The position numbers and the translations under genes were made by a program. Below, in pieces: positions 5,732 to 41,582 of a stretch of DNA of 64,000 nucleotides. Source of the stretch: a phage; the sequence record NC_129898.1. One strand, given 5' to 3'. The notes under the pieces are model-generated. The model made no database searches and had not been told where the DNA came from. It saw only the letters and a list, made by a program, of their open reading frames with translations. Within the stretch, counting starts at the first letter, position 1. Each line of letters opens with the position of its first letter.

Positions 5732-8155
5732 ATGAGTATGTGGTCTTTCGATCTGGAGGCCTCTGGCTTGCTGGAAGATCCAGATCTTTATTATCACTGC
5801 GGTTTGTTTAAAGAGCTGAATAAGAACCGTTTTATGCTGTTCCTTCCTCTAAATGACCGCACACACTACTCGGAAGAGGATGTAGAGAAGGCTAAGAACT
5901 TTATTCTGGCAAAGAGAACTCTTTATAAAGATTTTGAGGTTCGCATAGCAGATTTTTCAGAGTTGGAAGGTTGGCTTACAGGCAACTCAGACTGGTCACC
6001 TACGGCTTTGAACTGTCATAACTGCTACAGCTATGACTTTATGCTGATGGAAAGATTATCCGGTGTTCATTTTGATATGTTCCGTGATCCTAAATGTATG
6101 GGGACTATTAACGACCACCAGGTTAATCTGTTTGATACGTTGGCGATGAGTCGAATCTTGTGGCCTGACCGCCCTTTGCCAAAAGGTTGTCCGGACGCAG
6201 TATTCAATCCAGTTACCAAGAAAATGCAGCCTGTTGGGCCTCATGGCCTTATGGCATGGGGCTATGCCCTTGGTAACCAGAAAGTTCAAATCGATGACTG
6301 GCGTGAGCTTCCGCTGTGGAAGTATGTGGATCGTGTGTTCGAGGACGTTATCATCCAGGAGTTGCTCTGGAAAGAGTTGGTAGCGGAATCAAAAGGTGTA
6401 TTCTACGGCAAATCTGACATGCAGAACTTTATGTATGACCCTGCCAAAGAGAAGCCTAAAGGATTCAAGAAGATTACCTGGAAGAATGCATTACGCCGAG
6501 GCATGCTGCAGCATTTCCTGATGGAGCTGCAGGCTCGACAGGGTGTGTATTTCGACATAGATGGGGCTATTGCTTTACGTGACCGCTGCGATGCGTGGAT
6601 GAAAGAGATCGCTGATCGTGTTGAACCACAACTTCCTTTAAAAGAGTTATCAATGTCTCAGCGGCCTAAGTTCCCTGAAAAGCCGTTTAACCAGGATGGG
6701 ACAATCTCCAATAATGGTTGGAAATGGTTAAAAGACAAGCTTGGCTATCCTGTGGATATGAGCGCTTTAGAGTTCAAAGCTCCTCCTAAGCGAGCATTTA
6801 CCTCCACAGGGGATGTCAGTAAAATGGGGATAAAATGGTGTGAAGAGATGGGCTGTAAAGACCCAGATAAGATGGCTGATTTCTTGAGAGGGTATATCAA
6901 AGGAACTTCTACACCACACCCTTTACCTAAAGAGCTAATGGATCAGGCAATAAGTGACCTACAGCAGAAGCGAATGCCTGACTGCAAGATACCTATGAAA
7001 ATCAGCAATCAGGACGACATCAAGCGATACCTGATCAGTGCTGGTTGGCTCCCAACAATGTGGAGAACTAAGGATGTAACTAAAGACAGCAAGAAGAAAG
7101 CTCTGCCTGATGCTGATGTTGATGCACGAGTATATGCATATATGGACGAGCTTTTAGAGTCAGAGTATTGTGACCTAATTATCAACTTCTGGAACAAAAC
7201 TGATGCTAAGTTTCAGACAACCGTGCACAAGTTCCGAAGCTTCCCTAACTCAGAAAGGATTAAAAAGGAAGTGTTTGGGAAGATACGTAGAAAAGCCAGA
7301 GCGCTTATTACTTCTCCGCAACTGAAAGATACGTTTGGACACCTATGTCCGAATCTTGAAAAGTTGAACGGAGAGATGGCTAAAGATATCGTCTTGTGGT
7401 TATCCTTGCGAAACCGTAGATCGGTCCTTGATCCAATCAAGGAGGATAAGGTTGATACTGGTCTTCTTAATCATCCACGTTTGAAGATTGACCATAAGCT
7501 TCCTGCTAAAAGTTCTGGATTAACAAACACTTCCAGACAGAAACACAGCATTTGTGCAAACATGCCTAAACCATCTCCTAAAGTGGTTATGGGTAAAGAG
7601 ATGCGTAGTCTGTGGGGTGTTCCTCCAGGATACTTTGAGATCGGTATTGACGGGTCCAACTTAGAGCAGCTTATCGGGGCTTGGGGTGCCTTTGAGTTCG
7701 ACAACGGCCTGTACTATGATGTTGTAAGTAACGGGGACGCGCACCAAAACAATGCTGAGGCATATACAAAGGTAGCAGGTAGGGAGGTGTCTCGTAACGA
7801 TGGTAAACCTATCACGTATGGGGTTATGTATGGGGCACAAAAAGATAAAGTTGCAGATATGCTGGATATCTCTCCAGAGCTGGGGCAGAGAGTAATCGAT
7901 GCTCTCTGGGATGCCAACCCAGGCCTTAAGGGGCGTAAAGAGGATCTGGAGAAATTCTGGGAAGCAACAGGTAAGAAATTTATCTACTCTTTTGACGGTC
8001 ATGCCATTTGGACCCGCTCTAAACACTCTTTGCTTAATGCATATCAGCAAAATGGCGGTGCATCGTTGTGCGACTTGGTCGGAATCCTCATGCACCACCA
8101 AATGGTGAAGCGTGGATGGTATGATGAGGGTGTTCGTCGTATTATTTATTACCAT
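5732..8155 (+). CDS. DNA polymerase, family A (T7-like), exon 1
   Basis: FDLEASGL exo motif; GIDGSNLEQL (motif A) and RNDGKPITYGVMYG (motif B) align to T7 gp5; frame stops just before expected motif C. Confidence 0.85.
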
Positions 8156-8483
8156 AAATAACATTGTGGCTTCGTGCAGTGATGCACGTCGAAAACCTCT
8201 TTAATTGACGGGAAGGCTAAGTTGACTTTTACACCTAAACATGGTAAAAGCTCAATATGCTAATCCGCAGCGAAGCATCCGAGAGGATGAACGTTCAGAG
8301 ACTATCGAAAGCATAGCTCCAACACAGTTTGGGGTGAAGAAGCGAGTAGAGTAGGCCAGCAAGTGCGGTCGAAATGAGAGGTGCCTTGGTAACAAGGCAG
8401 TGAGATAGTCCGATCCATACGGGAAACTGTATGGCTATGCACGTAATGGTGCGGGGTAGCTTAACGACCTACCTGAACTATTG
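8156..8483 (+). ncRNA. group I self-splicing intron (ORF-less) in DNA polymerase gene
   Basis: 328 nt break between YYH and DEYQ; exon ends in U, intron ends in G; UUGUGG guide can pair CCAU|AA; P7-like CAGAGACUA (8296-8304) and UAGUCC (8406-8411). Confidence 0.65.
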
Positions 8484-8837
8484 GATGAGTACCAACTTCA
8501 AGTCCCTGACACACCTAAGTATAAAACTGTATACACCTTCGACACAATTGAAGAGCTGGAAACATTTAAGTCCCAGCAGGAGGCTAAACTTCATGTGTTC
8601 GACGGTCATAAGTACAAAAAGGCACGCAAGGATGAAGAAGGAAACGAAGTAGTTGACAGTGATGGAAATACGGTATACGATCCTATCTTGAACGATGACG
8701 GAAAGCTTGAACTTATCTGGAGCCCTGTGGGCGAAATGGTGGTACATTGCTTCTGGCAAGCTTCTAAAATGATGGGCGTTCCGTTCCAGATCACAGGTGA
8801 ATACTTGTGTGGACGTAACTGGGGCGATTGTCACTAA
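8484..8837 (+). CDS. DNA polymerase, family A, exon 2
   Basis: Joining restores motif C as YYHDEYQLQV (T7 AWVHDEIQV); C-terminus NWGDCH resembles T7 PNWAICH. Confidence 0.7.
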   Translation, partial: DEYQLQVPDTPKYKTVYTFDTIEELETFKSQQEAKLHVFDGHKYKKARKDEEGNEVVDSDGNTVYDPILNDDGKLELIWSPVGEMVVHCFWQASKMMGVPFQITGEYLCGRNWGDCH

Positions 8838-23758: not shown

Positions 23759-24130
23759 ATGGAATTTATTATTTTGGCTGTATTGGTTGCCTTATTTAAC
23801 GCCTGGATCGCTGGCAAGATGGGAAGATCCGCCTTTTTATGGTTTATTATATCTATTTTCCTGGGGGTGGTTGCAACTATTGTATTGGTTATCCTTGCAA
23901 TTGTTGACAAGGGGAATAATAGAAAGGGTAAAGTATTTTCAGACCTGTACGACGCTCAAACTTTTGTTAACGCCTATTATAGTGATCTCCCAGTCTCCCT
24001 ACGTTGCAGCCTTGCACAACAGGTTTTCGATGAAGCTAAAACCAGAGACCACGCCCATGAGATTTGTTTAACTGAGGCGGATCGCTTATTTGAGAGGAAT
24101 AGAAAATATGTGGGCCAGCCGTTTAAATAA
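23759..24130 (+). CDS. hypothetical membrane protein
   Basis: Two predicted TM helices; ATG 23759 after AAGAGG. Confidence 0.45.
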   Translation: MEFIILAVLVALFNAWIAGKMGRSAFLWFIISIFLGVVATIVLVILAIVDKGNNRKGKVFSDLYDAQTFVNAYYSDLPVSLRCSLAQQVFDEAKTRDHAHEICLTEADRLFERNRKYVGQPFK

Positions 24131-24349
24131 TACCACGTTAATTAATCCATTTAGTGAAGATTTGAGGCCAGCCGCCTGGCGGGATGGATTCAATAACGAA
24201 AAATTTACTTTTAGGCCTGATCTTGAGGAATTTTATAACAATGGATCGAACAACGACAGAGATAATTTTTCTTGCGGTGTGTGTCGTGATCGGACTACTG
24301 GGAGCCATTGCAAACCACGTAACCGCTAACAGAAGGAAAGGGGGAGACG

Positions 24350-24469
24350 ATGACACCCAAGGATAAGCCCCGCACCGATAAGGCGCGCCGTGTTATGGTA
24401 TGGCTGGAGATCATCGCCCTTGAAATATTGTTAGGCGTAGGGATGTATTTTATCGCCGTACGTACCTGA
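24350..24469 (+). CDS. hypothetical small membrane peptide (39 aa)
   Basis: AGGGGGAG RBS; hydrophobic C-terminus. Confidence 0.35.
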   Translation: MTPKDKPRTDKARRVMVWLEIIALEILLGVGMYFIAVRT

Positions 24470-24615
24470 TAACGGCCCCCGATCCCTGGGGGCCTGACTT
24501 TTTTCAAAAAAATTTTTCTTCCGGGGTGTTGCAATCCGGTCCGGGATATGGATAATAACAATCAACGGGGAGACACTCCCCACCACACAGACAAAGTTCC
24601 AAAAGGAGAAACAAA

Positions 24616-24816
24616 ATGAGCAACAATATCCGCGTTATTAATTTCAAAAAAGAAGAAAAAATCGCTGTGCTGGTTGATGGTCAAGAAATATTCAAGGGGT
24701 ATTATGAAGATCATCAGGCGGCGATCAGTATTACCCGCGTAATTGGTTACCATAATTTTTACCCTCAAGGCGCTGAGGCAGCAGTAAAACGAATTAAAGA
24801 GATCGTAGGCCTGTAA
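24616..24816 (+). CDS. hypothetical small protein
   Basis: Hairpin GGGGAGACACTCCCC, CA-rich leader, AAGGAGA RBS. Confidence 0.5.
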   Translation: MSNNIRVINFKKEEKIAVLVDGQEIFKGYYEDHQAAISITRVIGYHNFYPQGAEAAVKRIKEIVGL

Positions 24817-24817
24817 A

Positions 24818-24866
24818 ATTTATTTTTAGATGGCCTTGACCCCAGGGCCATCAAATAAAGTAAATT
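24818..24866 (+). repeat. conserved intergenic hairpin/promoter-like module (copy 4)
   Basis: Near-identical to 20474-20521. Confidence 0.55.
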
Positions 24867-24908
24867 TAAACCCTGCTAAAATAATCAGTGCAAAAAGGAG
24901 CAATGATC

Positions 24909-25208
24909 ATGTTTATACCCGCCAATAATCTTTATTTCTTTGATGGTCAGATCGTAGACGGCGTGGAAGTTGAGATCACTGGATGTCAAGGCGGCCAGGT
25001 AATGATCTTCCGCAATAGTGCCTTTAACGATCATTTTATTACAATGACTGTGGAAGTTAAAAAGCTGGATGATAAGAAAACACTCATTGACTATTCCGTG
25101 AAAGATCATCCAGACTACCACATGATCTATGGTGATTTGTGCATTGTTGACCGTGACAAGGTGGGCGGCATTGTGATCGCTATTGTGAACGATGTTTTCT
25201 CTGAATAA
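24909..25208 (+). CDS. hypothetical small protein
   Basis: AAGGAG RBS; start ATG 24903 or 24909. Confidence 0.45.
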   Translation: MFIPANNLYFFDGQIVDGVEVEITGCQGGQVMIFRNSAFNDHFITMTVEVKKLDDKKTLIDYSVKDHPDYHMIYGDLCIVDRDKVGGIVIAIVNDVFSE

Positions 25209-25430
25209 TTCCGGCAAATGATGCAAAATAAGGCCCATGGCAGGGCCTGCAGCGATATAATCACACAAAGGCTATGCGGTTGCATGGCCTTTTTTATTTT
25301 AGCGCTACAGCGGCCCCCAAGGCGTTTAAAAAATTTTTAAAAGTACTTGCATCAAGTCCGACAATATGGATAATAAGACTTATCAGGGGGCGGCCCCCAA
25401 TCATTAACCGGATAGATAGGAGTTAAAATC

Positions 25431-25715
25431 ATGGCTATTGTTACTGTTGGCGATGTAGTAGAAATGGAAGCAAAATACTTAAAAGCGGGTATGCATATCC
25501 TACGCAACGATCTTGAACTAGTCCTGACAATGGTCGACTATAATCCCGGTCAGGATTATCCAAGCATCGACTACTTTTTCCAGTATGTTGATGAAGAATT
25601 AAAAGAGGATGAGGCTTATCAGGGTGAATTTTGTAATTTCTTTTGCCCTGACGAGATTGTAAAAGTTATCTATCAACCTGGCGTACCTTTCCCGTTGCAC
25701 GCCATCAATAAATAA
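25431..25715 (+). CDS. hypothetical small protein
   Basis: Hairpin GGGGGCGGCCCCC, leader, AGGAG RBS. Confidence 0.5.
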   Translation: MAIVTVGDVVEMEAKYLKAGMHILRNDLELVLTMVDYNPGQDYPSIDYFFQYVDEELKEDEAYQGEFCNFFCPDEIVKVIYQPGVPFPLHAINK

Positions 25716-25778
25716 GCCTGGCGGGGCCGAAAAAGGCCCCTCCTGAAAATATGAAAAAATAAAGATAGGTGAATCATC

Positions 25779-26012
25779 ATGATGGAACAAATTAAACGCG
25801 CTGAGGCTATTAATGGTAATGTGATCTATTTTGTCAGCAAAAACGAAAAAGGCGTACCCTATGCGGCGGTAATAGTACAGCCTGACGGCGATTATTGGTG
25901 CACTGTGTACGGCGCTTATTCTTTTGGGCGTCCAGTGCATGATAAAATTTTGAAAGTAGCGAACCCTACCGGGAAAAATATCACAGCAGAAAAATTTTTT
26001 GAAAATAGTTGA
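25779..26012 (+). CDS. hypothetical small protein
   Basis: ORF after hairpin GGGGCC-GAAAAA-GGCCCC. Confidence 0.45.
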   Translation: MMEQIKRAEAINGNVIYFVSKNEKGVPYAAVIVQPDGDYWCTVYGAYSFGRPVHDKILKVANPTGKNITAEKFFENS

Positions 26013-26076
26013 CAACAAACAACAATCTAACAAAGCATAATACATAAGGCGGCAATGATGCCGCCAACATGACAGA

Positions 26077-26340
26077 ATGAGAAACATCATTTACAGACTG
26101 ACAAAACGCAACATTATGATCGCCACCGTGATCGCTTGCCTTTTCGCTTTCGTGAGTAACGCAACGTTTAACGCCGTGGGCGGGGCGATGTTTAATGCTG
26201 GCAGCGTTTCAACAGCTAACACAATGATCGATTGTTTGCAACTTTTCTTTTATGTTGCCTTTCGTTTAAAAATAGCTTGCAAGGTAGACCGTTTTGATTT
26301 ACCTTTCATTTGTGGCGGCGTGATCGCTATCGTATGTTAA
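26077..26340 (+). CDS. hypothetical membrane protein
   Basis: Hydrophobic segments; hairpin GGCGGCAATGATGCCGCC upstream. Confidence 0.45.
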   Translation: MRNIIYRLTKRNIMIATVIACLFAFVSNATFNAVGGAMFNAGSVSTANTMIDCLQLFFYVAFRLKIACKVDRFDLPFICGGVIAIVC

Positions 26341-26613
26341 GGATCAGAAGATGGGAAAACTCTCAATTCTGTTGTTTTATCAAAAACCTTGACAATATCA
26401 GAATGTACAGACGGTTAAAAATAATTGTTGACACCAGGCGCGGATCTGGTAAAGTGTACGACATAGGGCGGGGCAATAAGGCAACGCCCATTAATGATGG
26501 TGGAATCATGTTAGAAAAAATTTTCACGGTTGTAGTAGTTGGCATGGCATTATCGGTTGGAGTGGTTGCAACTATGGCTAACATGATCCTATCTTCCCAC
26601 GGTATCGGGTAAG

Positions 26614-26838
26614 GTGAAACAAATGATCACGAACAAAACAGGGAAAACGGAATTTTTACGCGGCTTGCAAATAGGCAAGCCTGAGATCTGGCATTGCACT
26701 AAAACACCACGTGACGAAATGAAAGACTTTACCGCCACGCTGAAGCGGGTAAAAATATCCATTACGCAGAAAAAAGCCTTGATAGTGGTGGAAGGTGAGA
26801 TCCCTCAAACCGTTGTTATTGTTGAGCGTACAGCATAG
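26614..26838 (+). CDS. hypothetical small protein
   Basis: ORF; start GTG 26614 or ATG 26623. Confidence 0.4.
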   Translation: MKQMITNKTGKTEFLRGLQIGKPEIWHCTKTPRDEMKDFTATLKRVKISITQKKALIVVEGEIPQTVVIVERTA

Positions 26839-26927
26839 TTTAATCTATACCGTACGCCCCATTGACTAACAAAGCATAAGCAGGCGGCGGTGACCGCCTT
26901 GAACGCAACAGAAAGAGAATAGAAAAC

Positions 26928-27062
26928 ATGAGAAAGATAATTATTACCATGGGGATCGTGGCGGCAATGTTGGCGATCTTTCCCTTTATGGTTAGGTATG
27001 TGCTGATCAGTGTTGTCCTGATAGGCAGTGATCTATTGGAAACGGTTGGCAACTGGTTTTAA
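26928..27062 (+). CDS. hypothetical small membrane peptide (44 aa)
   Basis: Hairpin GGCGGCGGTGACCGCC, leader, AGAGAA RBS; hydrophobic. Confidence 0.35.
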   Translation: MRKIIITMGIVAAMLAIFPFMVRYVLISVVLIGSDLLETVGNWF

Positions 27063-27132
27063 GATAATAAACAGGGCTTGAAATGGTCCTGTTTTTTGTT
27101 ATACTTATCTCACGGGTGGCACCTGGCGACGG

Positions 27133-27158
27133 GGGGAGACAATCACCGGGGGTGCCCG
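27133..27158 (-). repeat. inverted copy of the 25-bp element at 18734
   Basis: GGGGAGACAATCACCGGGGGTGCCCG is the reverse complement of the 18734-18758 element. Confidence 0.6.
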
Positions 27159-27265
27159 TTATATAAAAAACTATAAAAACAGTTGACATCTGCCAGGTGG
27201 TTAGGTAACATTTATCTTGAAGGGGCAAAAGTGCCCACACAACAACCGGAAGAGAGGAAAACATT

Positions 27266-27538
27266 ATGTCAAGCTGGATTAATCAAGAAATCGAATCACG
27301 TTTTAATGCTATTTGGGATCTCATCGAAAAAGAGGACGGAACATCAAGCCCTTATCTCAATAACCTGGAATTTCATTTTGTGGAAGCGATGAACGCAGAA
27401 CATGATCACGAAGGTGGCGCGGATGAGTTCGCTCAAGGGTATGGCTTCAACAATGCCAACGAAATGATTGAGGCGGTTGTACTTCAGGCTGAGGAAGATT
27501 ATCAATTAAAAACACTTGAATTTTGCCGCCGTAAGTAA
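27266..27538 (+). CDS. hypothetical acidic small protein
   Basis: Promoter TTGACA 27184, hairpin GGGGCAAAAGTGCCC, leader, AGAGAGGA RBS. Confidence 0.5.
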   Translation: MSSWINQEIESRFNAIWDLIEKEDGTSSPYLNNLEFHFVEAMNAEHDHEGGADEFAQGYGFNNANEMIEAVVLQAEEDYQLKTLEFCRRK

Positions 27539-27599
27539 TAAGATAATGACACTGGCCAAAAGGCCCACCAAACCAGAACCCCATAAAGAGGAAAACATC

Positions 27600-27863
27600 A
27601 TGAAACGCCTTGATCAGCTCAAACTAGTTCAGTACATGGCCTACAAAGTTATTGAAGTCCAAAAAGGTAGTAAAAAGGAGGTTTGCGAGAAAGCGTACAA
27701 GATCTTTACTCGTAAAAAAGATGATTGGATGTTGCGCCAGACCAAAAAGGCTGATATCCTGGGGTACCTGGAAGAAGAGATCCGGCTTGAAGAGCAAGAA
27801 GAGATCCGCCGAAGTGAGGCAGATTATCAGGCAGCTTGGGAAAGCTGGATGAGCAACAAATAG
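27600..27863 (+). CDS. hypothetical small protein
   Basis: AAAGAGGA RBS; last gene of + arm. Confidence 0.5.
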   Translation: MKRLDQLKLVQYMAYKVIEVQKGSKKEVCEKAYKIFTRKKDDWMLRQTKKADILGYLEEEIRLEEQEEIRRSEADYQAAWESWMSNK

Positions 27864-27877
27864 TACAACATTATCAA

Positions 27878-27906
27878 GGGGCCTTAAGGCCCCTTTCTTT
27901 TTTGTT
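27878..27906 (+). terminator. intrinsic terminator ending the + strand arm
   Basis: GGGGCC-TTAA-GGCCCC hairpin followed by TTTCTTTTTTGTTTT. Confidence 0.7.
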
Positions 27907-28511
27907 TTCTCTTTTCCTACCATAAACGGCCCCGCCTGGCAAGTGGAATAATTAACGAGCCATCAATCCCGCACACTGTACAAATATACATGTAAAATAG
28001 TTATTGCATAACCTTTCATTGTGTGGTAGCGGTGCTATTTTTACCTGTTTTCTCTCCCAAAATTGCACGTAATGCAGCTATTGCACAAAATTTAACCTGA
28101 TGCACATCTTCAGTATACTGTCAACAATTAAAAACCCTTATAAGTCATACACTTACACAAACCAAAAAGCGCGTCCTACGTGAAAAATCGGGTGTAACTA
28201 TAGCCGACAGATCTCAGAATCCACGTACGATCACCATTCTATAGCCTGCAAAGTATTTATTCCAACCACAGAATAACGGAATAGTCAATACCTGTACAAA
28301 ATAATTATTCGTACAAACTGCATAACATAAACCTGCCCAGGTGTCAACATTTTTCGTAAACAGTTAGAAATTGTCACGATAGGTTACTATAATCAGAGAA
28401 ATATTTAGTCGTCTAATGTTTACTGTACATAACTATACTGACTGGAATCATTAGATGACTAAGAGAAAGATAAGAAATAGTTAACAATGTAATTGTTTTA
28501 CCTGTAACAAT

Positions 28512-28688
28512 AAGGCAACTATGCAAACGAATGGCATGGCGCGACGGAGTCGCGACATAATATAAAAGCAGTAACAATCACCCCCGTGATAGTTTGTCTG
28601 CAATCTATTAATCAGATCATAGTTGCCTTGTATTTAGTTAATCATGACATAACAAGCAAGGCAACTATAGATCTTCTAATAGTTGCCC
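28512..28688. repeat. paired inverted repeats AAGGCAACTAT / ATAGTTGCC
   Basis: AAGGCAACTAT at 28512 and 28658; reverse complement at 28619 and 28679; palindrome GCGAC-GGA-GTCGC at 28541. Confidence 0.6.
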
Positions 28689-28761
28689 TGCTTTTATATT
28701 ATGTCATAGAAACGCCCGAAGGGGTGACCTAGTCACCTGGCATAGCCAGCGAAATATTATT

Positions 28762-28821
28762 AACTTGTTAATTGTCAGCTTGTTGGCTGTTAGCTTGTCA
28801 ATTGTTAACTTGCTAATTGTT
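28762..28821. repeat. tandem 15-bp repeats (4 units)
   Basis: CTTGTTAATTGTCAG / CTTGTTGGCTGTTAG / CTTGTCAATTGTTAA / CTTGCTAATTGTTAA, contiguous. Confidence 0.65.
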
Positions 28822-30459
28822 AAACTCGGGAGCATAGCCCTCGTCTCAAGGGTGTTATCATGCAAACGAATGTCATGGCTTATCATCTATGCGTAAACTG
28901 TCAGGGTGTAGACTATTCAGGCGTAAACAGTCTATGCGGGAACAATCTATACGTGAACAGTGAAATATGAAATAATAACAGTCGTTATTGTATCGAAAGT
29001 GTATAAGGTGTCAGATTATGGCATATTGTGTGACATTGTGTCAGACAAGTTTTTCTCCTCTTTGTCAAGTGCTGCATGGAAAATTTACAATCTGGTATGG
29101 TAGCATTTTTGCGGCCCTGTTTACATTCAGGAGTGTATGTATAACCCTTGTTGTGTGGGCGTTTAGACGTCTGGACGGTCAGAAGTCTGCAGGTTAATAT
29201 CTAATCTATTGGTCGCTAACTATATCCCCCACAAATAATAAGAAATGCAATTGTTATATGCGTAAACAGTAACTCATGTTATCAATCCCTGTATGTATCG
29301 CCAGTGGTGCGCATAATGGGTATTATGTTAAATTGCCCGTAATGATAACAGTTCTCACAATGATAGGTATTCTCATTCACCCCCACAAAATAGATTGCAA
29401 ATGTTGTGCCACTGTGTGAACGGCCTCGCCTATTAATTTGCCTCACTGCTCCGATATTTGAGAATTGTTATAAGAATGAGAAGTATTCCCATTTCGTCCG
29501 CCTGGCAGCGCTCCTGTAGGTCAGGTCAAAATCGTGGTAGAACTGGACCCCTTCAGATATTTCTAGCTGACTCTTCAGGCCTGTGTGGGAAAAGCCAACC
29601 TCTCCGGCGGGGCAGGGGGGTCAATTAAAAAATTTACGTAGGGTACGAAGCGCTCTTCAGGTAAGGCATGTATTAGAGGATGAAACCCTCTTCAGGTGAT
29701 GATATTTGTGGGTGTGATATTTGCTGGAAAGCCAGATATGACGGGACTACCGGCGGGGATGGGGTAGTATAGGCAGGGAAAATGTGGAGAATGTGGTTGG
29801 TAAATTTATCAGGCAGGTAGAGTATGGGATATGTTACAGGTATGTTAAATATGGAGGTAGGATATTTGTAAGATTTGTGTGTAAAATCAAAGACTTAAGT
29901 GGTGTTGTGGTATTTTCTATAAATAATTCAAGTTTAATAGGTAATATTTGTCTCTATCCACTTTGTGGGGTAAACAGATTCTAATTGAATTGGTTTACAA
30001 GTGTATATAAAGTATACAAATTAAAGATATAAGAAACCCCCCTCCCCCTTCGGCTACCATTCACCTTTTCCTCTGACTGGTACTTAAACACTTATTCAGA
30101 CTCTTCAGGTTATCACCCATATACTATATGGCAGTGACTGGTGTCCTCTGGCCCCTCTTTCGTCACCCGTCCGCTTCGCCATGCTAATGCCATAGCTAAA
30201 GGTTCGGTTGTTCACCCTGTTCACTCAGGTGTATCTCCATACCCCTTCAAACCGAAGAGAACAGAAAACCCGAATTACTCGGTAAAAGAAAAGAGAAGAA
30301 CTTAATTTTATCAGGATAGGCAAGAATGTCAAGGCATGACTGCTCACTAAACAAGCAAACAGTCATGTGTGGGAGGTAAGTGATTGTGGTGGTAGGAAAT
30401 TTAGTTGAAAGATGTGTTATAGGTGCTTCCAGCACTTTAGCCGGGCAGCTAATTGTGTG

Positions 30460-30675
30460 TCAGTCCAGCGGTTCATCCTCTACTTCACTGAAATCGATGT
30501 TCAGGGTCTCTTCCCAACCATCGATCTCAGCACAAGAGTGGAGTTCTTTAGGGTTTACTCCCAAAGCCTCAGCAACAGCGTCTATATTTAACACCTCTGG
30601 CAGGTATGATTCATCAAATTCAAGGTAAATCAGGCCACGAGTGTTGTCAGCTCCACCAAATATTTCTATCTTCAT
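30460..30675 (-). CDS. hypothetical small protein (MKIEI family)
   Basis: Starts MKIEIFGG; last gene of - arm. Confidence 0.45.
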   Translation of the reverse strand: MKIEIFGGADNTRGLIYLEFDESYLPEVLNIDAVAEALGVNPKELHSCAEIDGWEETLNIDFSEVEDEPLD

Positions 30676-33416: not shown

Positions 33417-33745
33417 TAGTCTTCCTCCAGGTTCAAAGGTCCTAAGATTTCATATGCTAGATTAGAAGTTACCAGAGGGTCTTCTGCATCTTTAGTATTA
33501 TACCATCCGTGAATAACCAGAGTCCCACTTTGCTTCATGTCTAACTGGAACTGTTCTGCCGTTTCCTCATCCATCTCCAAGATCTCCATGAGGTATTTGA
33601 TGTTAGGAAGGTATGCAGCTGTTACAGTCCCCTCTACCAGGCCTTCAGGCCAACCTACATCCGGATGACAAGTAGGGACCAGAGAGGTCAGCTTGATAGT
33701 GTATGCTTTTTCTGCACGAGCCTTCAGTAACGGATCAATTTTCAT
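33416..33745 (-). CDS. hypothetical small protein (MK-I/V family)
   Basis: MKIDPLL start; overlapping start/stop with neighbours. Confidence 0.45.
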   Translation of the reverse strand: MKIDPLLKARAEKAYTIKLTSLVPTCHPDVGWPEGLVEGTVTAAYLPNIKYLMEILEMDEETAEQFQLDMKQSGTLVIHGWYNTKDAEDPLVTSNLAYEILGPLNLEED

Positions 33746-34095
33746 TATTCTTCCTCCTCTTCGGTGCCTGCTTCCAGTAGTAAGTTAAGAACATCTTCAG
33801 CAGAAGGTTCGTAGAACTCTTGGCCTTCGTTGTCGATGATGCGATAGTCATCACCCCGAATAATCAGAGGATCGTCATCAAAACCTTCAAGACCTTTAAC
33901 AACGACAACACGGTCGATTGCCATCATTGTAAGAACTTTATCGACATCTTCCTCTGCTACACCATACTGCAGCAGAATGTCTTTGGTAGGAGGGACAGCA
34001 TCCACCACAACACCGTTACCAAAACCTTCCGGAAGTTTAGCTAAAATATCTTCCGGAACCACATTCATATCAAAACCTGTGATCTCTACTTTCAT
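33745..34095 (-). CDS. hypothetical small protein (MK-I/V family)
   Basis: MKVEITGFD start; acidic tail. Confidence 0.45.
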   Translation of the reverse strand: MKVEITGFDMNVVPEDILAKLPEGFGNGVVVDAVPPTKDILLQYGVAEEDVDKVLTMMAIDRVVVVKGLEGFDDDPLIIRGDDYRIIDNEGQEFYEPSAEDVLNLLLEAGTEEEEE

Positions 34096-34432: not shown

Positions 34433-34828
34433 TTACTGAAACAGTGCAGATAAATTACCTTCTGGTGGGAACTTATCTGCCAAGAACGGAGTCAGAACAG
34501 TGGCCTTCTGAAGATCTGGAGTCCACTCGTTGTTCAGAACATCCCAGTAGTACGCAATGTTGCTGTGTGGGTGCCGCATTACGAACTTTTTCCCTTCGTA
34601 GTCAGTTGAAACCTCTACAGAAGAAATAACAACAGAATCTTCAAGAGTTTCTTCATAGAAAGATCCACCCTCGAATTTCCAACGAGATGCAAGAGCTCCT
34701 GCCTTAAACGCTGCAGATAACGGACTGTCGGCAAGAACATACATTTCTTGCACTCTGTCGCTACGATCTTTGCTTCTTACGTTGTATACAGTATCTGAGC
34801 TATACTCAACACGGTATAGACTTACCAT
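34433..34828 (-). CDS. hypothetical protein (paralogue of 36644-37042)
   Basis: AGALASRWKFEG and KFVMRHPHSNIAYYWDVLNNEWTP match paralogue. Confidence 0.5.
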   Translation of the reverse strand: MVSLYRVEYSSDTVYNVRSKDRSDRVQEMYVLADSPLSAAFKAGALASRWKFEGGSFYEETLEDSVVISSVEVSTDYEGKKFVMRHPHSNIAYYWDVLNNEWTPDLQKATVLTPFLADKFPPEGNLSALFQ

Positions 34829-35160
34829 TACCGCACCTCCTCAATAACTTCCACATCTGAACCTACCACAAATGCAAAAGGGCAGGTTTCATGAAAGACA
34901 TCCGGATCGCCGCCAAGCTTGCTAACTATTTCTCCACCACTAATAAACACAAGCTCACCGATATTCATCAGATTGCTGAAATAGTATCCATAATGATTAA
35001 AGAATGCAGCAGGGTCAGGCAGACTGGTAGCCTCAAGCTCTACATCGGTTGAGATTACTTTCTTATCATACCCTCTGGCCTTTTGAGATGCAAGATCTGC
35101 AGAATCCTCAGGCGACCGGAGATGCACAGGAATTGTTTCACCAATAAAGCGTACTTTCAT
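34828..35160 (-). CDS. hypothetical small protein (MKV family)
   Basis: MKVRFIGE start preferred; DVEVIEEVR tail. Confidence 0.45.
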   Translation of the reverse strand: MKVRFIGETIPVHLRSPEDSADLASQKARGYDKKVISTDVELEATSLPDPAAFFNHYGYYFSNLMNIGELVFISGGEIVSKLGGDPDVFHETCPFAFVVGSDVEVIEEVR

Positions 35161-35164
35161 ATTC

Positions 35165-35428
35165 TCACCCAACAACCATAGCTTCAAAAGGGGTCATAAA
35201 CGAATAAACAGCATTATCATCTGCTTCAGGAAATGCCCCCAAAGACTTCATGTCTGAGCCCTTGACAAATACAAGGTTCTGATCAAAAGCTTCTTGTGGA
35301 TCAATCCGATACATATTTCGTAGGGTATCACTTACCTCCTCATCAAGAGGTGAGTATGCTGTGCACGTTTTTCCGATCAAGCTTTGAGAATCAGGATATC
35401 CACCTGAAGTTTTAAAATAAACAATCAT
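35165..35428 (-). CDS. hypothetical small protein (MKV family)
   Basis: VKGSDMKSLGA motif shared with family. Confidence 0.45.
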   Translation of the reverse strand: MIVYFKTSGGYPDSQSLIGKTCTAYSPLDEEVSDTLRNMYRIDPQEAFDQNLVFVKGSDMKSLGAFPEADDNAVYSFMTPFEAMVVG

Positions 35429-35523: not shown

Positions 35524-35793
35524 TTACTCTTCTACAATCTCATACACATCAGGAGTTACAATCAACTCTTCTCCGTTACCCGGTGCAACAAACACCACCA
35601 AGCCTTCAGGTGTGTGCTTTTTAGCCATCTCGATAACATCTTCTCGCAGAGCTGGCTCCATCAGATCAAAGCCTTCACCCAAGGCATCACGAACTACCTT
35701 CATGTAGTCCACTGGTTGTGCTTCAACGATCATGCCTTCAACCAGTCCGCAGTTTTTGTCTTCCAGCTCAGTTTTGAATAATTTAATTTTCAT
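35524..35793 (-). CDS. hypothetical small protein (MK-I/V family)
   Basis: MKIKLFK start; DVYEIVEE tail. Confidence 0.45.
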   Translation of the reverse strand: MKIKLFKTELEDKNCGLVEGMIVEAQPVDYMKVVRDALGEGFDLMEPALREDVIEMAKKHTPEGLVVFVAPGNGEELIVTPDVYEIVEE

Positions 35794-35930
35794 TTAGAGG
35801 TCTCCTCAATTATTTGATATTAATAGCCGTAACCTAACACATTAACTACAACTGCGATTGCAAACATAATTTCAAAGCATGCAATCTCTACATTTGGGAC
35901 TAATTTCTTAATCACGCCCATTGTAGCACC

Positions 35931-36248
35931 TCATTCTCCAAAGTAAATCTTTACTTTGCCTTTCCCTTTACCTTTCTTTCCACCGCATTTAGCCAACTGA
36001 CGTGCTGCAACATCTACCATACGGTCAGTTGCCTCGTAAGCGTCACTGCCTTTAGCTTTGGCAATAACTTCTTTTCCGGAAGTGTCAAAAATGAACGCCA
36101 TGACTTCCTGGTGATCATTTTCAACTTTTACACTCACACGTGCATAGTTGGCAGAGGGGTGCAAACGCTCCAGCTTAGACATTTTGTGGGAAATGAAAGA
36201 CACCATACCTTCAGTGATTTCTACGTTGCCAGTGATTTCAATTTGCAT
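35931..36248 (-). CDS. hpf: ribosome hibernation promoting factor homologue (HPF/YfiA family)
   Basis: MQIEITGNVEITEGM...KLE...VKVE...AKAKGSDAYEATDRMVDVAARQLAK aligns along its length with E. coli Hpf as recalled; Lys/Gly-rich tail. Confidence 0.75.
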   Translation of the reverse strand: MQIEITGNVEITEGMVSFISHKMSKLERLHPSANYARVSVKVENDHQEVMAFIFDTSGKEVIAKAKGSDAYEATDRMVDVAARQLAKCGGKKGKGKGKVKIYFGE

Positions 36249-36335
36249 AACGTGCTCCTTTTAAGGAAGAGAGAATAACAACCATCTCTCTTTGAAAACA
36301 ATAATACTATAGCTGAAGCGTTGTGTCAACAGTTT

Positions 36336-36643: not shown

Positions 36644-37042
36644 TCAGTCTAGCTTTTCTTCAACAACCCCGTAGCTCGGGGCAGAGTCAAGAGCTTTTTG
36701 GTTTAAAAGTGGTGTAGCAGAATCTGCAAACGGTGTCCAAGTTTTTGTTCTGGCATTCCAGTAATGCTTCACTCTGGAATCTGGATGCACTATAACAAAA
36801 ACTTTTTCACTTGTCAACACATTAATTTCTTCTACACCCTTGCTGATAATTTCTCCGTCATAGCCCCCAGTCTGGTATCCTTCGTACCAGGTTCTTGCAT
36901 AGGCATAGCCAGCCTGCCAGCATGCAGCCTCCTCCGAGGTGGAGACTACGTAGAAGTCTTTCTCAAATTCTGGGATACGTCCTTGCTTTACGCTCCAAGC
37001 TCCGCGAATTTTCATTGTTACTTTGAAAAGCTTGTTCTTCAT
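36644..37042 (-). CDS. hypothetical protein (paralogue of 34433-34828)
   Basis: AGYAYARTWYEG and VFVIVHPDSRVKHYWNARTKTWTP. Confidence 0.5.
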   Translation of the reverse strand: MKNKLFKVTMKIRGAWSVKQGRIPEFEKDFYVVSTSEEAACWQAGYAYARTWYEGYQTGGYDGEIISKGVEEINVLTSEKVFVIVHPDSRVKHYWNARTKTWTPFADSATPLLNQKALDSAPSYGVVEEKLD

Positions 37043-37043
37043 A

Positions 37044-37298
37044 CTACCGCTCTACAATCTCTACGTCTGTTCCTACACCGAAGGCATAGTAATGTTCTTC
37101 CCCAAAGTAATACTTGGGGACACCAGCTTTGATCAGGTCTAACCCGCGAATAAATACCACACCGTGTGATACAGTGGAATGCTTCTGACGCACAGGATCG
37201 TTGTCAGGCAACCATTCAAAGTACACCGCAGGTACAACCTTCCCTTTAAGAAAGGATTGCCCCAAGTAGACGTTAGAATCAAGAATTTTGACCTTCAT
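37044..37298 (-). CDS. hypothetical small protein (MKVK family)
   Basis: MKVKILDSNVYLGQ...IRGLDLIKAG...DVEIVER. Confidence 0.5.
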   Translation of the reverse strand: MKVKILDSNVYLGQSFLKGKVVPAVYFEWLPDNDPVRQKHSTVSHGVVFIRGLDLIKAGVPKYYFGEEHYYAFGVGTDVEIVER

Positions 37299-37512
37299 GA
37301 TCGTCCTCCACTATCTCCACATCCTCCCCTAGGGCAAAGTTGTAGGTCCACTGACTGTCAAAGCAGTCCTGAGATGCTCCAGCGGCAATAAGATCTGCAC
37401 CCTTTATTTTTAAAAGGTCAGGATAATCTTCGTTAGGGACAGCGGTAAACACTTTACCCACTAAAGGCTCCTGACCAATATAGAAGTTTGAATCTAAAAC
37501 TTTAACTTTCAT
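37279..37512 (-). CDS. hypothetical small protein (MKVK family)
   Basis: MKVKVLDSNFYIGQ...IKGADLIAAG...DVEIVED. Confidence 0.5.
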   Translation of the reverse strand: MKVKVLDSNFYIGQEPLVGKVFTAVPNEDYPDLLKIKGADLIAAGASQDCFDSQWTYNFALGEDVEIVEDDHEGQNS

Positions 37513-40386: not shown

Positions 40387-40914
40387 CTATATCTCCTGGT
40401 TCAAACTGTTAAGAAAGGATACCCTGTCTTCGCTATTTTTCTCTGTGATGTACCCTCCAAACATGGAAAGAATCACATGCTTCAAGTAATCTTTTTCTGG
40501 GTCGCTTAGATGATTGCGTGGCTTTATTTCCACATCATGGTAGTCATACAATCCACAATCATGATACCCCCAGTATCGACACACCTCAATACTGATCGGG
40601 AGTTTTTTGTCACACGAAACTTTCCAACGGGTTACGTTGTTACCAGGAGATAAATCCTCTCCCACCTTCACGAATGACAAATCATAATTCATAAACTTTT
40701 CGTACAGTTTAAGTACAAAACCTTCTACCTGTGGAGAAACACCAGCCACTAGCTGGGCGTATCTATATTTACTTTCAATAATTTTTCGGCGCTTTGCTGT
40801 AAGGTTTATTGCAGCAATTTGACTCTCCGAGTATCTCCAAGGCTTATATATAAATGCTTTCGGGTCTTTATCGCCATAAAAATCTTTCCAATCAACTAGC
40901 AGCATACCTGTCAC
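40387..40914 (-). CDS. hypothetical protein (175 aa)
   Basis: ORF in array. Confidence 0.5.
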   Translation of the reverse strand: MTGMLLVDWKDFYGDKDPKAFIYKPWRYSESQIAAINLTAKRRKIIESKYRYAQLVAGVSPQVEGFVLKLYEKFMNYDLSFVKVGEDLSPGNNVTRWKVSCDKKLPISIEVCRYWGYHDCGLYDYHDVEIKPRNHLSDPEKDYLKHVILSMFGGYITEKNSEDRVSFLNSLNQEI

Positions 40915-41144
40915 TCCTCCACAACTTCAAGGCCTTTGCCGCCTCGTTCTGGTAGATTACTTAAAGACAGGTAATACGTATAGTCAGGAGAGATCCTACC
41001 AGACTCTGCACCTGCAGATAGTAAATCTTTTCCCTTAACCATGACAACATTATCGTTTGCAGATAGTCGTTTTGCTTCCACAATTTTACCAACGCAGTCA
41101 ACCAAGGAAGGGTACCCTAAATCTGTAAGAAATTTAACTTTCAT
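40911..41144 (-). CDS. hypothetical small protein (MKVK family)
   Basis: MKVKFLTDLGYPSL...VKGKDLLSAG...LEVVEE. Confidence 0.5.
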   Translation of the reverse strand: MKVKFLTDLGYPSLVDCVGKIVEAKRLSANDNVVMVKGKDLLSAGAESGRISPDYTYYLSLSNLPERGGKGLEVVEE

Positions 41145-41183: not shown

Positions 41184-41582
41184 TTACTGAACAAAGCGCG
41201 GAGCTGGGAAGGATAACTCTTCTAAAGAGAAGATTTCATTCCCCACAATCCATGTTGCAGGATCATCCGGGTTGACTGGATAGATGATCATCACCTCGTC
41301 AGTGTTACATACCCGCTTTTTACCTGTGGAGTCATCAGCAACCAGCATGCGCGGTTCTTCAGAAATGCACAGGTAGCCTCCTCGGCCCACTGTTCCTTCC
41401 ACAGGGTCTTGTCCTTTGATCACGATGATTATCTTCTCTCCTGAGGCGATATTACCTTGCACACTCACCGTTTGACCAACCTTGGATGTGCCAATCTTAG
41501 TGACTTCGAACATTACATCCCGAATTACCGTTGCATAATCGCCAGACACTTTCTTACCTTCTTTAGTGATCTCAATCTTCAT
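41184..41582 (-). CDS. hypothetical protein (MKIEI family)
   Basis: MKIEITKEG start. Confidence 0.45.
   Translation of the reverse strand: MKIEITKEGKKVSGDYATVIRDVMFEVTKIGTSKVGQTVSVQGNIASGEKIIIVIKGQDPVEGTVGRGGYLCISEEPRMLVADDSTGKKRVCNTDEVMIIYPVNPDDPATWIVGNEIFSLEELSFPAPRFVQ

What the first reader, a model, noticed from the sequence alone, without database searches (positions are those of the whole stretch)
35931..36248. Phage-encoded ribosome hibernation factor homologue inside the small-gene array
The 105 aa protein aligns with E. coli Hpf as recalled from memory (MQIEITGNVEITE / MQLNITGNNVEITE; KLE; VKVE; A.A.G.D.Y.A.D......ARQL.K). A phage HPF could silence host ribosomes or compete with host HPF. 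Some neighbouring paralogues begin similarly (MKVEITG, MKIEITK), which raises the possibility that part of the array derives from the same fold.
Basis: partly seen in the sequence, partly recalled or inferred. Interest (0 to 1): 0.7.

Follow-up and report, generated by a model that had tools for sequence, protein, structure and literature searches.

The report
Known phage copy of ribosome hibernation factor
This E. coli phage (rV5 group) really does carry a diverged copy of the bacterial ribosome "hibernation" protein HPF, but the gene was annotated years ago and already tested once (it did not stay on ribosomes), so the finding is correct but not new, and the gene's role in infection is still unknown.

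Summary
The 105-aa ORF at 35931-36248 (-) is real and belongs to the HPF/YfiA family. Pfam PF02482 scores 48.2 bits (cutoff 23.7). E. coli HPF is the best solved-structure match (E 7e-12). [quoted passage not shown]

The window is a Vequintavirus (rV5-like phage), and the gene is rV5 ORF144 (ABI79209). It is present in about 117 phage records and annotated as sigma-54 modulation factor, HPF or RaiA. Mizuno et al. 2019 (PMC6375957) reported this gene and expressed it in E. coli. It was not found in salt-washed 70S/100S ribosomes and did not change 100S levels.

What I add:
- It sits behind a conserved sigma-70-type promoter.
- It is a genus core gene under strong purifying selection (dN/dS about 0.06).
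- It is isolated in sequence: one 65% sister lineage, all cellular HPFs at or below 44%.
- It keeps some ribosome contacts (K23, K26, D75, R83, K87, K91 in E. coli numbering) but replaces near-invariant ones (Y/H30, T53, H55, K80, K89).
- It has a disordered Lys/Gly tail.
- No phage record in the collection encodes RMF.

The idea that neighbouring small genes share the fold is not supported. Verdict: already known, function unresolved.

The parts
36301..36329 (-). Sigma-70-type promoter (TTGACA, 17-nt spacer, TATTAT) driving the HPF gene. It corresponds to rV5 promoter P144.
   Evidence: It matches 11 of 12 consensus positions. rV5 annotates a sigma-70-type promoter P144 at the same place. The -35 hexamer is invariant, and the -10 is TATTAT or TATCAT, in 9 Vequintavirus genomes. 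The 65% sister lineage also has aaactgTTGACA upstream of its HPF. The window holds many similar intergenic TTGACA promoters, each followed by an RBS and ATG.
36249..36300 (-). 5' untranslated region. It has a 7-bp hairpin (arms 36285-36291 and 36268-36274) and a GGAG Shine-Dalgarno sequence at 36255-36258.
   Evidence: The RNA fold gives -12.7 kcal/mol with a modest z-score of -1.8. The arms read AGAGAGA/TCTCTCT in the window and YP-6, and AGAGGG/CCCTCT in rV5, FFH2, APCEc02 and Aya, which are changes on both sides. The function is unknown.
35982..36248 (-). [quoted passage not shown]
   Evidence: PF02482 scores 48.2 bits and TIGR00741 scores 46.7 bits against a 40.9 cutoff. The AlphaFold core has pLDDT of about 79-94 with elements E2-7, H13-29, E33-43, E46-55, E60-67 and H70-89. 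The top 37 Foldseek PDB hits are all HPF/YfiA/pY. dN/dS is about 0.065.
35934..35981 (-). Disordered Lys/Gly-rich C-terminal tail (GKKGKGKGKVKIYFGE). Residues 87-105 carry a net charge of +6.
   Evidence: pLDDT is below 50 for residues 91-105. The tail differs from the cellular consensus KHKEKLxDH and from the sister lineage's tail KYSKSKGIDKRTAKWDY. Frameshift-shortened tails occur in phages APCEc02 and Murica.
35931..35933 (-). TGA stop codon of the HPF gene.
35820..35921 (-). 33-aa hydrophobic mini-ORF (MGVIKKLVPNVEIACFEIMFAIAVVVNVLGYGY). It starts 9 nt after the HPF stop and is probably co-transcribed. It is not part of HPF itself.
   Evidence: ORF list. It is annotated as rV5 ORF145 and in Murica, V18, nomo and YP-6. 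No such gene is called in the sister lineage. It has no NCBIfam hit.

Best explanation
Shown: the ORF is a genuine short (single-domain) member of the HPF/YfiA ribosome-hibernation family, maintained by selection. It is a core gene of the genus Vequintavirus (rV5 gp144) and sits directly behind a conserved host-type sigma-70 promoter.

Inferred mechanism: the protein is made by host RNA polymerase, probably early in infection. It binds idle (mRNA-free) host 30S/70S ribosomes in the A/P-site decoding channel, as cellular HPF does. Binding would use the retained helix contacts (K22, K25, R28, D75, R83, K87 and K91 in phage numbering) together with a flexible polycationic Lys/Gly tail. Several invariant contacts are replaced, so binding is likely weaker and salt-labile, and it does not itself drive 100S formation. 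The likely benefit is to park ribosomes released by host mRNA loss and shield them from RNases, keeping the translation machinery available for phage gene expression. This would matter most in slow-growing or stressed hosts.
For: Family membership:
- PF02482 scores 48.2 bits against a 23.7 cutoff.
- TIGR00741 scores 46.7 bits against a 40.9 cutoff.
- E. coli HPF is the best PDB sequence match, E 6.9e-12.
- In Foldseek, 4hei (V. cholerae HPF) gives TM 0.93 at rmsd 1.0 A and 6h4n_x (E. coli HPF on the 100S ribosome) gives TM 0.87. The top 37 hits are all HPF/YfiA/pY.

Evidence of function:
- dN/dS is about 0.03-0.13 pairwise and 0.065 pooled over 10 Vequintavirus copies.
- The gene is found in 117 phage records, the same number that carry the DNA polymerase of the same window.
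- A 65% sister lineage keeps the gene in the same small-gene context.

Expression:
- The TTGACA-17-TATTAT promoter is conserved and annotated as P144 in rV5.
- A GGAG RBS lies upstream of the start codon.

Retained ribosome contacts, listed in bioRxiv 10.1101/2025.10.07.680626 and mapped:
- K23, K26, R29, D75, R83 and K87 (E. coli numbering) are all kept. R83 and K87 are among the four ribosome-contacting residues shared by HPF and YfiA. E60 has an identical Glu beside a one-residue insertion, and K91 is kept in this phage although the position lies in the predicted disordered tail.

Protective role of hibernation factors against YbeY and RNase R: PMC7913689.
Against: - The only experiment is negative. 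rV5 HPF expressed from pBAD24 in E. coli NM522 was detected in crude extract but not in 70S/100S fractions, and it did not change the 100S peak (PMC6375957). The authors name high-salt washing and growth phase as caveats.
- Positions conserved in 44-51 of 51 cellular HPFs are replaced: K80 to V, K89 to G, T53 to F, H55 to F, Y/H30 to L, DMY to DAY.
- The score is far below the enterobacterial HPF equivalog cutoff, 55 against 125 bits.
- One isolate (YP-6) has a stop at codon 4, so the gene is dispensable for laboratory growth, unless that is a sequencing error.
- Expression timing and any benefit to the phage are inferred, not observed.
Confidence: 0.5

Rival explanations
1. Anti-hibernation or YfiA-like competitor. 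The protein occupies the HPF/YfiA site, but its longer basic tail reaches the RMF site, as the YfiA tail does. That would prevent RMF/HPF-driven 100S dimer formation, so the ribosomes of a starving or dormancy-induced host stay as quickly reusable 70S for the phage.
For: - The tail is 10 residues longer than in E. coli HPF, disordered, and carries +6 charge.
- The YfiA tail is reported to head towards the RMF site and block RMF.
- No phage record encodes RMF, so the phage cannot build 100S ribosomes by itself.
- Induction of RMF accompanies dormancy-type antiphage immunity by DRT2 (PMC11100668).
Against: - The protein is much closer in sequence to HPF than to RaiA: E 7e-12 against 0.17, and 55 against 18.6 bits in NCBIfam.
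- Many cellular HPFs of 99-112 aa also carry tails.
- The tail is not conserved in the sister lineage and is frameshift-truncated in two deposited genomes.
- Expression of the protein caused no discernible change in the 100S peak, although those cells were harvested at the end of exponential phase, when little 100S is present.
Confidence: 0.15
2. Neofunctionalised protein. It keeps the HPF fold but no longer works on the ribosome, and instead binds another RNA or protein target of host or phage.
For: - No ribosome association was detected.
- K80 and K89 (51/51), H55 (48/51), T53 (45/51) and Y/H30 are replaced, and most of these changes are shared with the 65% sister lineage. This suggests a long-standing phage-specific constraint.
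- The protein fails the HPF and RaiA equivalog cutoffs.
- It is basic overall, pI 9.0 against 6.5 for E. coli HPF.
- There is a precedent for a second HPF partner: S. aureus HPF binds YwlG (abstract of PMC9522360, listed).
Against: - R83, K87, K23, K26 and D75 are retained, and the fold is essentially unchanged at 1.0-1.2 A rmsd.
- The negative assay used stringent salt washes.
- No alternative target is suggested by any data here.
Confidence: 0.2
3. Host shut-off factor. The protein blocks translation initiation on host ribosomes in general, and abundant phage mRNAs with strong Shine-Dalgarno sites out-compete it.
For: [quoted passage not shown]
- The gene has an early-type promoter.
- rV5 genes are reported to have near-consensus RBSs (PMC3606486).
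Against: - The protein would inhibit phage translation equally.
- Cells expressing the protein grew to OD600 of 1 and gave normal 70S profiles.
- Hibernation factors bind vacant ribosomes, not translating ones.
Confidence: 0.08
4. The neighbouring small genes (MKVEITG..., MKIEITK... and others) are diverged paralogues of this HPF gene and share its fold.
For: The only support is a 5-of-7 identical N-terminal heptapeptide.
Against: - The HPF HMM gives noise-level scores for all other ORFs.
- hhalign probabilities are 1.0% and 0.15%.
- Nine neighbours tested have no Pfam hit and belong to other PHROG families.
- The real paralogue sets in the array are 37044-37298 / 37279-37512 / 40911-41144 and 34433-34828 / 36644-37042, and none involves HPF.
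- The AlphaFold model of the MKVEITG protein has low confidence and a different order of elements.
Confidence: 0.03

Closest known systems
Escherichia phage rV5 gp144 (ABI79209), 'sigma 54 modulation factor' / HPF, as analysed by Mizuno et al. 2019 (Nat Commun, PMC6375957)
   Same: This is the same gene. It is 98% identical over 105 aa, lies in the same position, and has the same upstream promoter P144.
   Different: There are two substitutions, N56T and D102Y. The window's lineage reads GNVEIT, whereas V18, nomo and Murica keep GNNVEIT.
E. coli HPF (YhbH), the short hibernation promoting factor; PDB 2rql, 6h4n, 4v8h
   Same: It is the best sequence and structure match, at 41-42% identity and TM 0.86-0.87. 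[quoted passage not shown]
   Different: - The phage protein fails the HPF equivalog cutoff, 55 against 125 bits.
- Y30, T53, H55, K80 and K89 are replaced.
- It carries a 10-residue-longer Lys/Gly tail, and its pI is 9.0 against 6.5.
- It lies in a phage early-gene array rather than a cellular locus.
- It had no 100S effect in the one published test.
E. coli YfiA/RaiA (protein Y)
   Same: It has the same family and fold, and a C-terminal extension beyond the helical core.
   Different: Sequence similarity is weak: E 0.17, and 18.6 bits against a 158 cutoff. The YfiA tail is acidic at its end (net -2), whereas the phage tail is polycationic. The frequent GenBank product name 'RaiA' is a generic family label.
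Long HPF of Gram-positive bacteria and Thermus (N-terminal HPF domain plus C-terminal dimerisation domain)
   Same: The N-terminal domain has the same fold.
   Different: The phage protein has no C-terminal dimerisation domain. It is 105 aa, and its only Pfam hit above the curated cutoff is PF02482.
Other phage HPF-family genes (Cronobacter phage GAP32; Xanthomonas jumbo phage XaC1)
   Same: They are PF02482-type genes carried by large myoviruses.
   Different: They appear to be unrelated acquisitions. tblastn with the Vequintavirus protein finds none of them, and in the published tree GAP32 clusters elsewhere.

Membership tests
HPF/YfiA family (Pfam PF02482 Ribosomal_S30AE; NCBIfam TIGR00741) | Sequence match above the curated family cutoffs | tested here: met
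   PF02482 scores 48.2 bits against a 23.7 cutoff. TIGR00741 scores 46.7 bits against a 40.9 cutoff.
HPF/YfiA family (Pfam PF02482 Ribosomal_S30AE; NCBIfam TIGR00741) | [quoted passage not shown] | tested here: met
   The AlphaFold model has pLDDT 82 with elements E-H-E-E-E-H. The top 37 Foldseek PDB hits are all family members, with rmsd 1.0 A to 4hei. This is a prediction, not an experimental structure.
HPF/YfiA family (Pfam PF02482 Ribosomal_S30AE; NCBIfam TIGR00741) | Basic track on helix alpha-2 that contacts 16S rRNA (K80, R83, K87, K89, K91), plus the beta-sheet contacts T53/H62 (m2G966) and H55/E60 (uS9) | tested here: inconclusive
   R83, K87, K91 and E60 are kept. K80 is replaced by V, K89 by G, T53 by F and H55 by F, and position 62 is I (contact list).
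HPF/YfiA family (Pfam PF02482 Ribosomal_S30AE; NCBIfam TIGR00741) | Binds the 30S decoding channel of vacant ribosomes | not testable with these tools
   The published test found no phage HPF peptides in salt-washed 70S/100S fractions, although the protein was present in crude extract (PMC6375957).
Enterobacterial short HPF (NCBIfam equivalog NF007780) | Score at or above the equivalog cutoff of 125 bits | tested here: not met
   The phage protein scores 55 bits, while E. coli HPF scores 204.8.
Enterobacterial short HPF (NCBIfam equivalog NF007780) | Converts RMF-induced 90S dimers to 100S; needs RMF | not testable with these tools
   There is no RMF homologue in the window or in any of 50,697 phage records. 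The published profile showed no effect on 100S.
RaiA/YfiA (NCBIfam equivalog NF007654) | Score at or above the equivalog cutoff of 158 bits | tested here: not met
   The score is 18.6 bits. phmmer against PDB YfiA gives E 0.17.
RaiA/YfiA (NCBIfam equivalog NF007654) | C-terminal extension that overlaps the RMF site | tested here: inconclusive
   An extension is present (residues 90-105, disordered), but its composition is unrelated to the YfiA tail and it varies between phage lineages.
Long HPF | C-terminal dimerisation domain | tested here: not met
   The protein is only 105 aa, with no second domain in the Pfam scan.

The most novel reading that the evidence does not exclude
The Vequintavirus HPF is a repurposed hibernation factor. 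It would be a weak-binding decoy with a polycationic tail that competes with host HPF, YfiA and RMF. In that way it would prevent or reverse ribosome hibernation in starving hosts, or in hosts driven into dormancy by immune systems. That would make it a phage counter-measure to dormancy rather than a hibernation factor.
Probability: 0.15. Interest if true: 0.65.

Novelty: already known. Interest (0 to 1): 0.22.

Why it matters
Phage genes that act directly on the ribosome are rare, and it is not known why a strictly lytic coliphage keeps a hibernation factor. The gene was identified long ago, in the GenBank record of rV5 and in a 2019 survey of virus-encoded ribosomal proteins, so nothing here is a discovery.

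The remaining value is that the function is unresolved. The gene is a strongly conserved core gene, yet the one assay found no ribosome binding. The residue-level picture given here (part of the rRNA-contact track kept, several invariant contacts replaced, a new Lys/Gly tail, no phage RMF) suggests concrete low-salt binding and knockout experiments.

Tried and rejected
- Neighbour paralogy was tested four ways and rejected: HMM search, hhalign, Pfam and PHROGs, and AlphaFold.
- I looked for a phage RMF partner in the window and in all phage records. None was found.
- A 1160-aa protein with nine apparent HPF-like stretches (P0006) turned out to be a PPC-repeat protein, so the hit was spurious.
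- I tried to read Polikanov et al. 2012 for contact residues, but it is not held. I used bioRxiv 10.1101/2025.10.07.680626 instead.
- Three papers do not mention this gene or hibernation factors: the rV5 genome paper, the BASEL collection paper and the LL12 host-factor screen. No paper combines 'Vequintavirus' and 'hibernation'.
- Reading by eye, ribosome-contact positions are not preferentially conserved between the two phage lineages (about 8 of 13 identical, against 63-65% identity overall). Nor are they preferentially replaced relative to other conserved positions. Neither comparison discriminates between retained and lost binding.
- The published suggestion that the transfer was relatively recent fits poorly with the exhaustive search. 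No cellular protein exceeds 44% identity.

Full report
**Observation**

It lies in a long minus-strand array of small ORFs. The recalled matches to E. coli HPF are real. HMMER aligns residues 1-89 to E. coli HPF (PDB 2rql, 4v8h, 6h4n) with E about 7e-12, and the alignment reproduces MQ.xITG.NVEITE, KLE, KVE and A.A.G.D.Y.A.D....ARQL.K. YfiA/RaiA matches only at E 0.17.

- Pfam PF02482 (Ribosomal_S30AE) scores 48.2 bits against a gathering cutoff of 23.7, with E 1.9e-12, over profile positions 1-83 of 88.
- NCBIfam places the protein in the HPF/YfiA family (TIGR00741: 46.7 bits against a 40.9 cutoff). It falls far below both the enterobacterial HPF equivalog (55 against 125) and the RaiA equivalog (18.6 against 158).
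- An AlphaFold2 model was built on 56 sequences (alignment A2). [quoted passage not shown]
- Foldseek against the PDB returns only HPF/YfiA/pY proteins in the first 37 places. The best are V. cholerae HPF 4hei (TM 0.93, rmsd 1.0 A) and ribosome-bound E. coli HPF 6h4n_x (TM 0.87).

The protein is therefore a true member of the family, closer to HPF than to RaiA, but not an equivalog of either.

**What the window is, and prior knowledge**

The 1.2 kb around the gene matches 117 phage records at 90-97% identity, essentially all of them Vequintavirus (rV5-like) coliphages. The protein is 94-99% identical in 117 phage records. It is rV5 ORF144 (ABI79209), annotated 'sigma 54 modulation factor', with an annotated sigma-70-type promoter P144 just upstream. 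Other records call it HPF, ribosome hibernation factor or RaiA.

Mizuno et al. 2019 (Nat Commun, PMC6375957) listed exactly this protein among virus-encoded ribosome-associated proteins and tested it:
- rV5 HPF was expressed from pBAD24 in E. coli NM522.
- It was detected by mass spectrometry in crude extract but not in sucrose-gradient 70S/100S fractions prepared under high-stringency salt.
- The authors name growth phase, salt washing, or genuine loss of ribosome binding as possible reasons.

The rV5 genome paper, the BASEL collection paper and an LL12 host-factor screen do not discuss the gene. The identification is therefore already known, and the function is not.

**New details: expression signals**

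A near-consensus promoter (TTGACA, 17 nt, TATTAT) lies at 36329-36301 (-). Its -35 hexamer is invariant, and its -10 is TATTAT or TATCAT, in nine Vequintavirus genomes. The 65% sister lineage also has aaactgTTGACA upstream of its copy. The window carries many such intergenic TTGACA promoters followed by an RBS and ATG. This fits transcription of the array by host RNA polymerase. Early timing is an inference. The 52-nt leader has a 7-bp hairpin whose arms differ on both sides between lineages (AGAGAGA/TCTCTCT against AGAGGG/CCCTCT), followed by a GGAG Shine-Dalgarno sequence.

**New details: selection and distribution**

- Across ten Vequintavirus copies, the core (residues 1-88) has pairwise dN/dS of 0.02-0.13 and 0.065 pooled.
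- The same number of phage records (117) carries the DNA polymerase segment of this window, so HPF behaves as a core gene of the genus.
- An exhaustive HMMER search of 1.8 billion representative proteins found only one cluster above 50% identity: P0004, 65% identical and 103 aa. All cellular HPFs were at or below 44%.
- P0004 is encoded on 125-137 kb contigs in a similar small-gene array. That DNA matches Vequintavirus only patchily, at about 72-76% identity.
- The published remark that the transfer was relatively recent is therefore doubtful. The gene is either old in this phage lineage or diverged quickly after capture.

**New details: residue-level comparison**

The ribosome contacts come from recent cryo-EM work on Gram-negative HPF and YfiA (bioRxiv 10.1101/2025.10.07.680626). 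I compared them against 51 cellular gammaproteobacterial HPFs, using E. coli numbering.
- Kept: K23, K26, R29, D75, R83, Q84 and K87. E60 has an identical Glu beside a one-residue insertion. K91 is kept in this phage (S in the sister lineage), although the position lies in the predicted disordered tail.
- Replaced: Y/H30 to L, T53 to F (the m2G966 contact), H55 to F (the uS9 C-terminus contact), K80 to V (K in 51 of 51), H88 to C, K89 to G (K in 51 of 51), and DMY to DAY.
- Most of these replacements are shared with the sister lineage (L29, H30, P31, F54, non-Lys at 80). They are therefore old and now conserved.
- Helix alpha-2 ends at about residue 89 and is followed by GKKGKGKGKVKIYFGE. Residues 87-105 carry +6, giving an overall pI of 9.0, against 6.5 for E. 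coli HPF and 6.2 for YfiA.
- The tail is the least constrained part. It differs in the sister lineage, and one-base indels in its purine run shorten it in the deposited APCEc02 and Murica genomes.
- Phage YP-6 has TAA at codon 4, so the gene is dispensable in culture, unless that is a sequencing error.
- No RMF homologue is present in the window or in any of 50,697 phage records.

**Mechanism**

Family membership, purifying selection and the promoter are shown. What the protein does is inferred.

The best-supported reading is that it still binds the decoding channel of vacant host ribosomes. Binding would use the retained helix contacts and the polycationic tail, but more weakly than host HPF, which would explain its loss in salt-washed preparations. 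This would park or protect idle ribosomes during infection, since hibernation factors shield 16S rRNA from YbeY and RNase R (PMC7913689).

The rivals are:
- a YfiA-like or anti-hibernation role, in which the tail excludes RMF. RMF induction accompanies dormancy-type immunity (PMC11100668).
- loss of ribosome binding with a new target.
- general host translation shut-off.

None of these can be separated computationally. The needed experiments are listed under next steps.

**The neighbouring genes**

The suggestion that part of the array shares the HPF fold fails every test available.
- An HMM built from HPF homologues scores this ORF at 116 bits and every other window ORF at 7 bits or less.
- hhalign of the HPF profile against the MKVEITG protein (33745-34095) and the MKIEITK protein (41184-41582) gives probabilities of 1.0% and 0.15%.
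- Nine neighbours tested have no Pfam hit at E<=1 and belong to other PHROGs.
- A single-sequence AlphaFold model of the MKVEITG protein has low confidence (pLDDT 60), with its N-terminus unstructured and a different order of elements. This gives no support, but it is not decisive at the fold level.
- Real paralogue sets do exist in the array, but they do not involve HPF: 37044-37298 / 37279-37512 / 40911-41144, and 34433-34828 / 36644-37042.

**Verdict**

The neighbour-paralogue idea is not supported. The functional speculation is untested here and weakened by one published negative assay. The finding is already known, and interest is low to moderate because the biological role of a conserved phage HPF remains open.

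Noticed in passing
window 8146-8433 (+): A group I catalytic intron (Rfam RF00028, 75.6 bits against a gathering score of 50, full-length model). It starts about where the 809-aa ORF at 5732-8161 ends. Part of that ORF matches genes annotated as DNA polymerase in related phages. A 73-aa ORF follows at 8431-8652, so the polymerase gene may be intron-split.
   Followed up: no
window 35820-35921 (-): A 33-aa hydrophobic mini-ORF (MGVIKKLVPNVEIACFEIMFAIAVVVNVLGYGY) starts 9 nt after the HPF stop, with a GAGG RBS overlapping the end of HPF. It is annotated in rV5 (ORF145), Murica, V18, nomo and YP-6. No equivalent gene is called in the 65% sister lineage.
   Followed up: partly
window 35524-35793 (-), and GenBank records APCEc02_082, nomo_102, ECP2309, JLBYU08: This is an annotation error that has propagated. 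The 89-aa gene downstream of HPF is labelled 'sigma 54 modulation factor' in several records although it has no PF02482 match. In other records (OR062525, OR062530, MT884008, MT884010) the HPF gene itself is labelled 'ATP-dependent protease La type I'.
   Followed up: yes
L009 (Escherichia phage YP-6) 401-718; L005 (APCEc02); L006 (Murica): YP-6 has a TAA stop at codon 4 of HPF and is annotated from an internal Met. APCEc02 and Murica have one-base indels in the purine-rich tail region that shorten the protein to 101 and 99 aa. These may be real variants or homopolymer sequencing errors.
   Followed up: partly
window 36268-36291 (-): The HPF 5' leader has a 7-bp hairpin with changes on both arms between lineages: AGAGAGA/TCTCTCT against AGAGGG/CCCTCT. 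The fold z-score is only -1.8, and the function is unknown.
   Followed up: partly
GenBank MG065635-MG065690 ('Campylobacter phage', UNVERIFIED): Eighteen records labelled as Campylobacter jejuni phages are Vequintavirus genomes by sequence. Across this locus they are 90% or more identical in DNA (95.6% in the rows shown) and classed in Vequintavirus. The host label is probably wrong, or they are contaminants.
   Followed up: no
window ~24100-30600: This stretch of about 6 kb has no long ORF on either strand, no tRNA (ARAGORN) and no Rfam hit, but it does have sigma-70-like promoters (for example at 26428 and 27183, plus strand). The rV5 paper also mentions a region with no observable ORFs.
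   Followed up: no
window 37044-37298, 37279-37512, 40911-41144 and the C-terminus of 34828-35187 (all -); also 34433-34828 and 36644-37042 (-): There are two genuine small-protein paralogue families within the array (phrog_5009-like and phrog_7379). Many array proteins share an MK[IV]K... start and an acidic ...[VY]E[IV]VEE end. Their function is unknown.
   Followed up: partly
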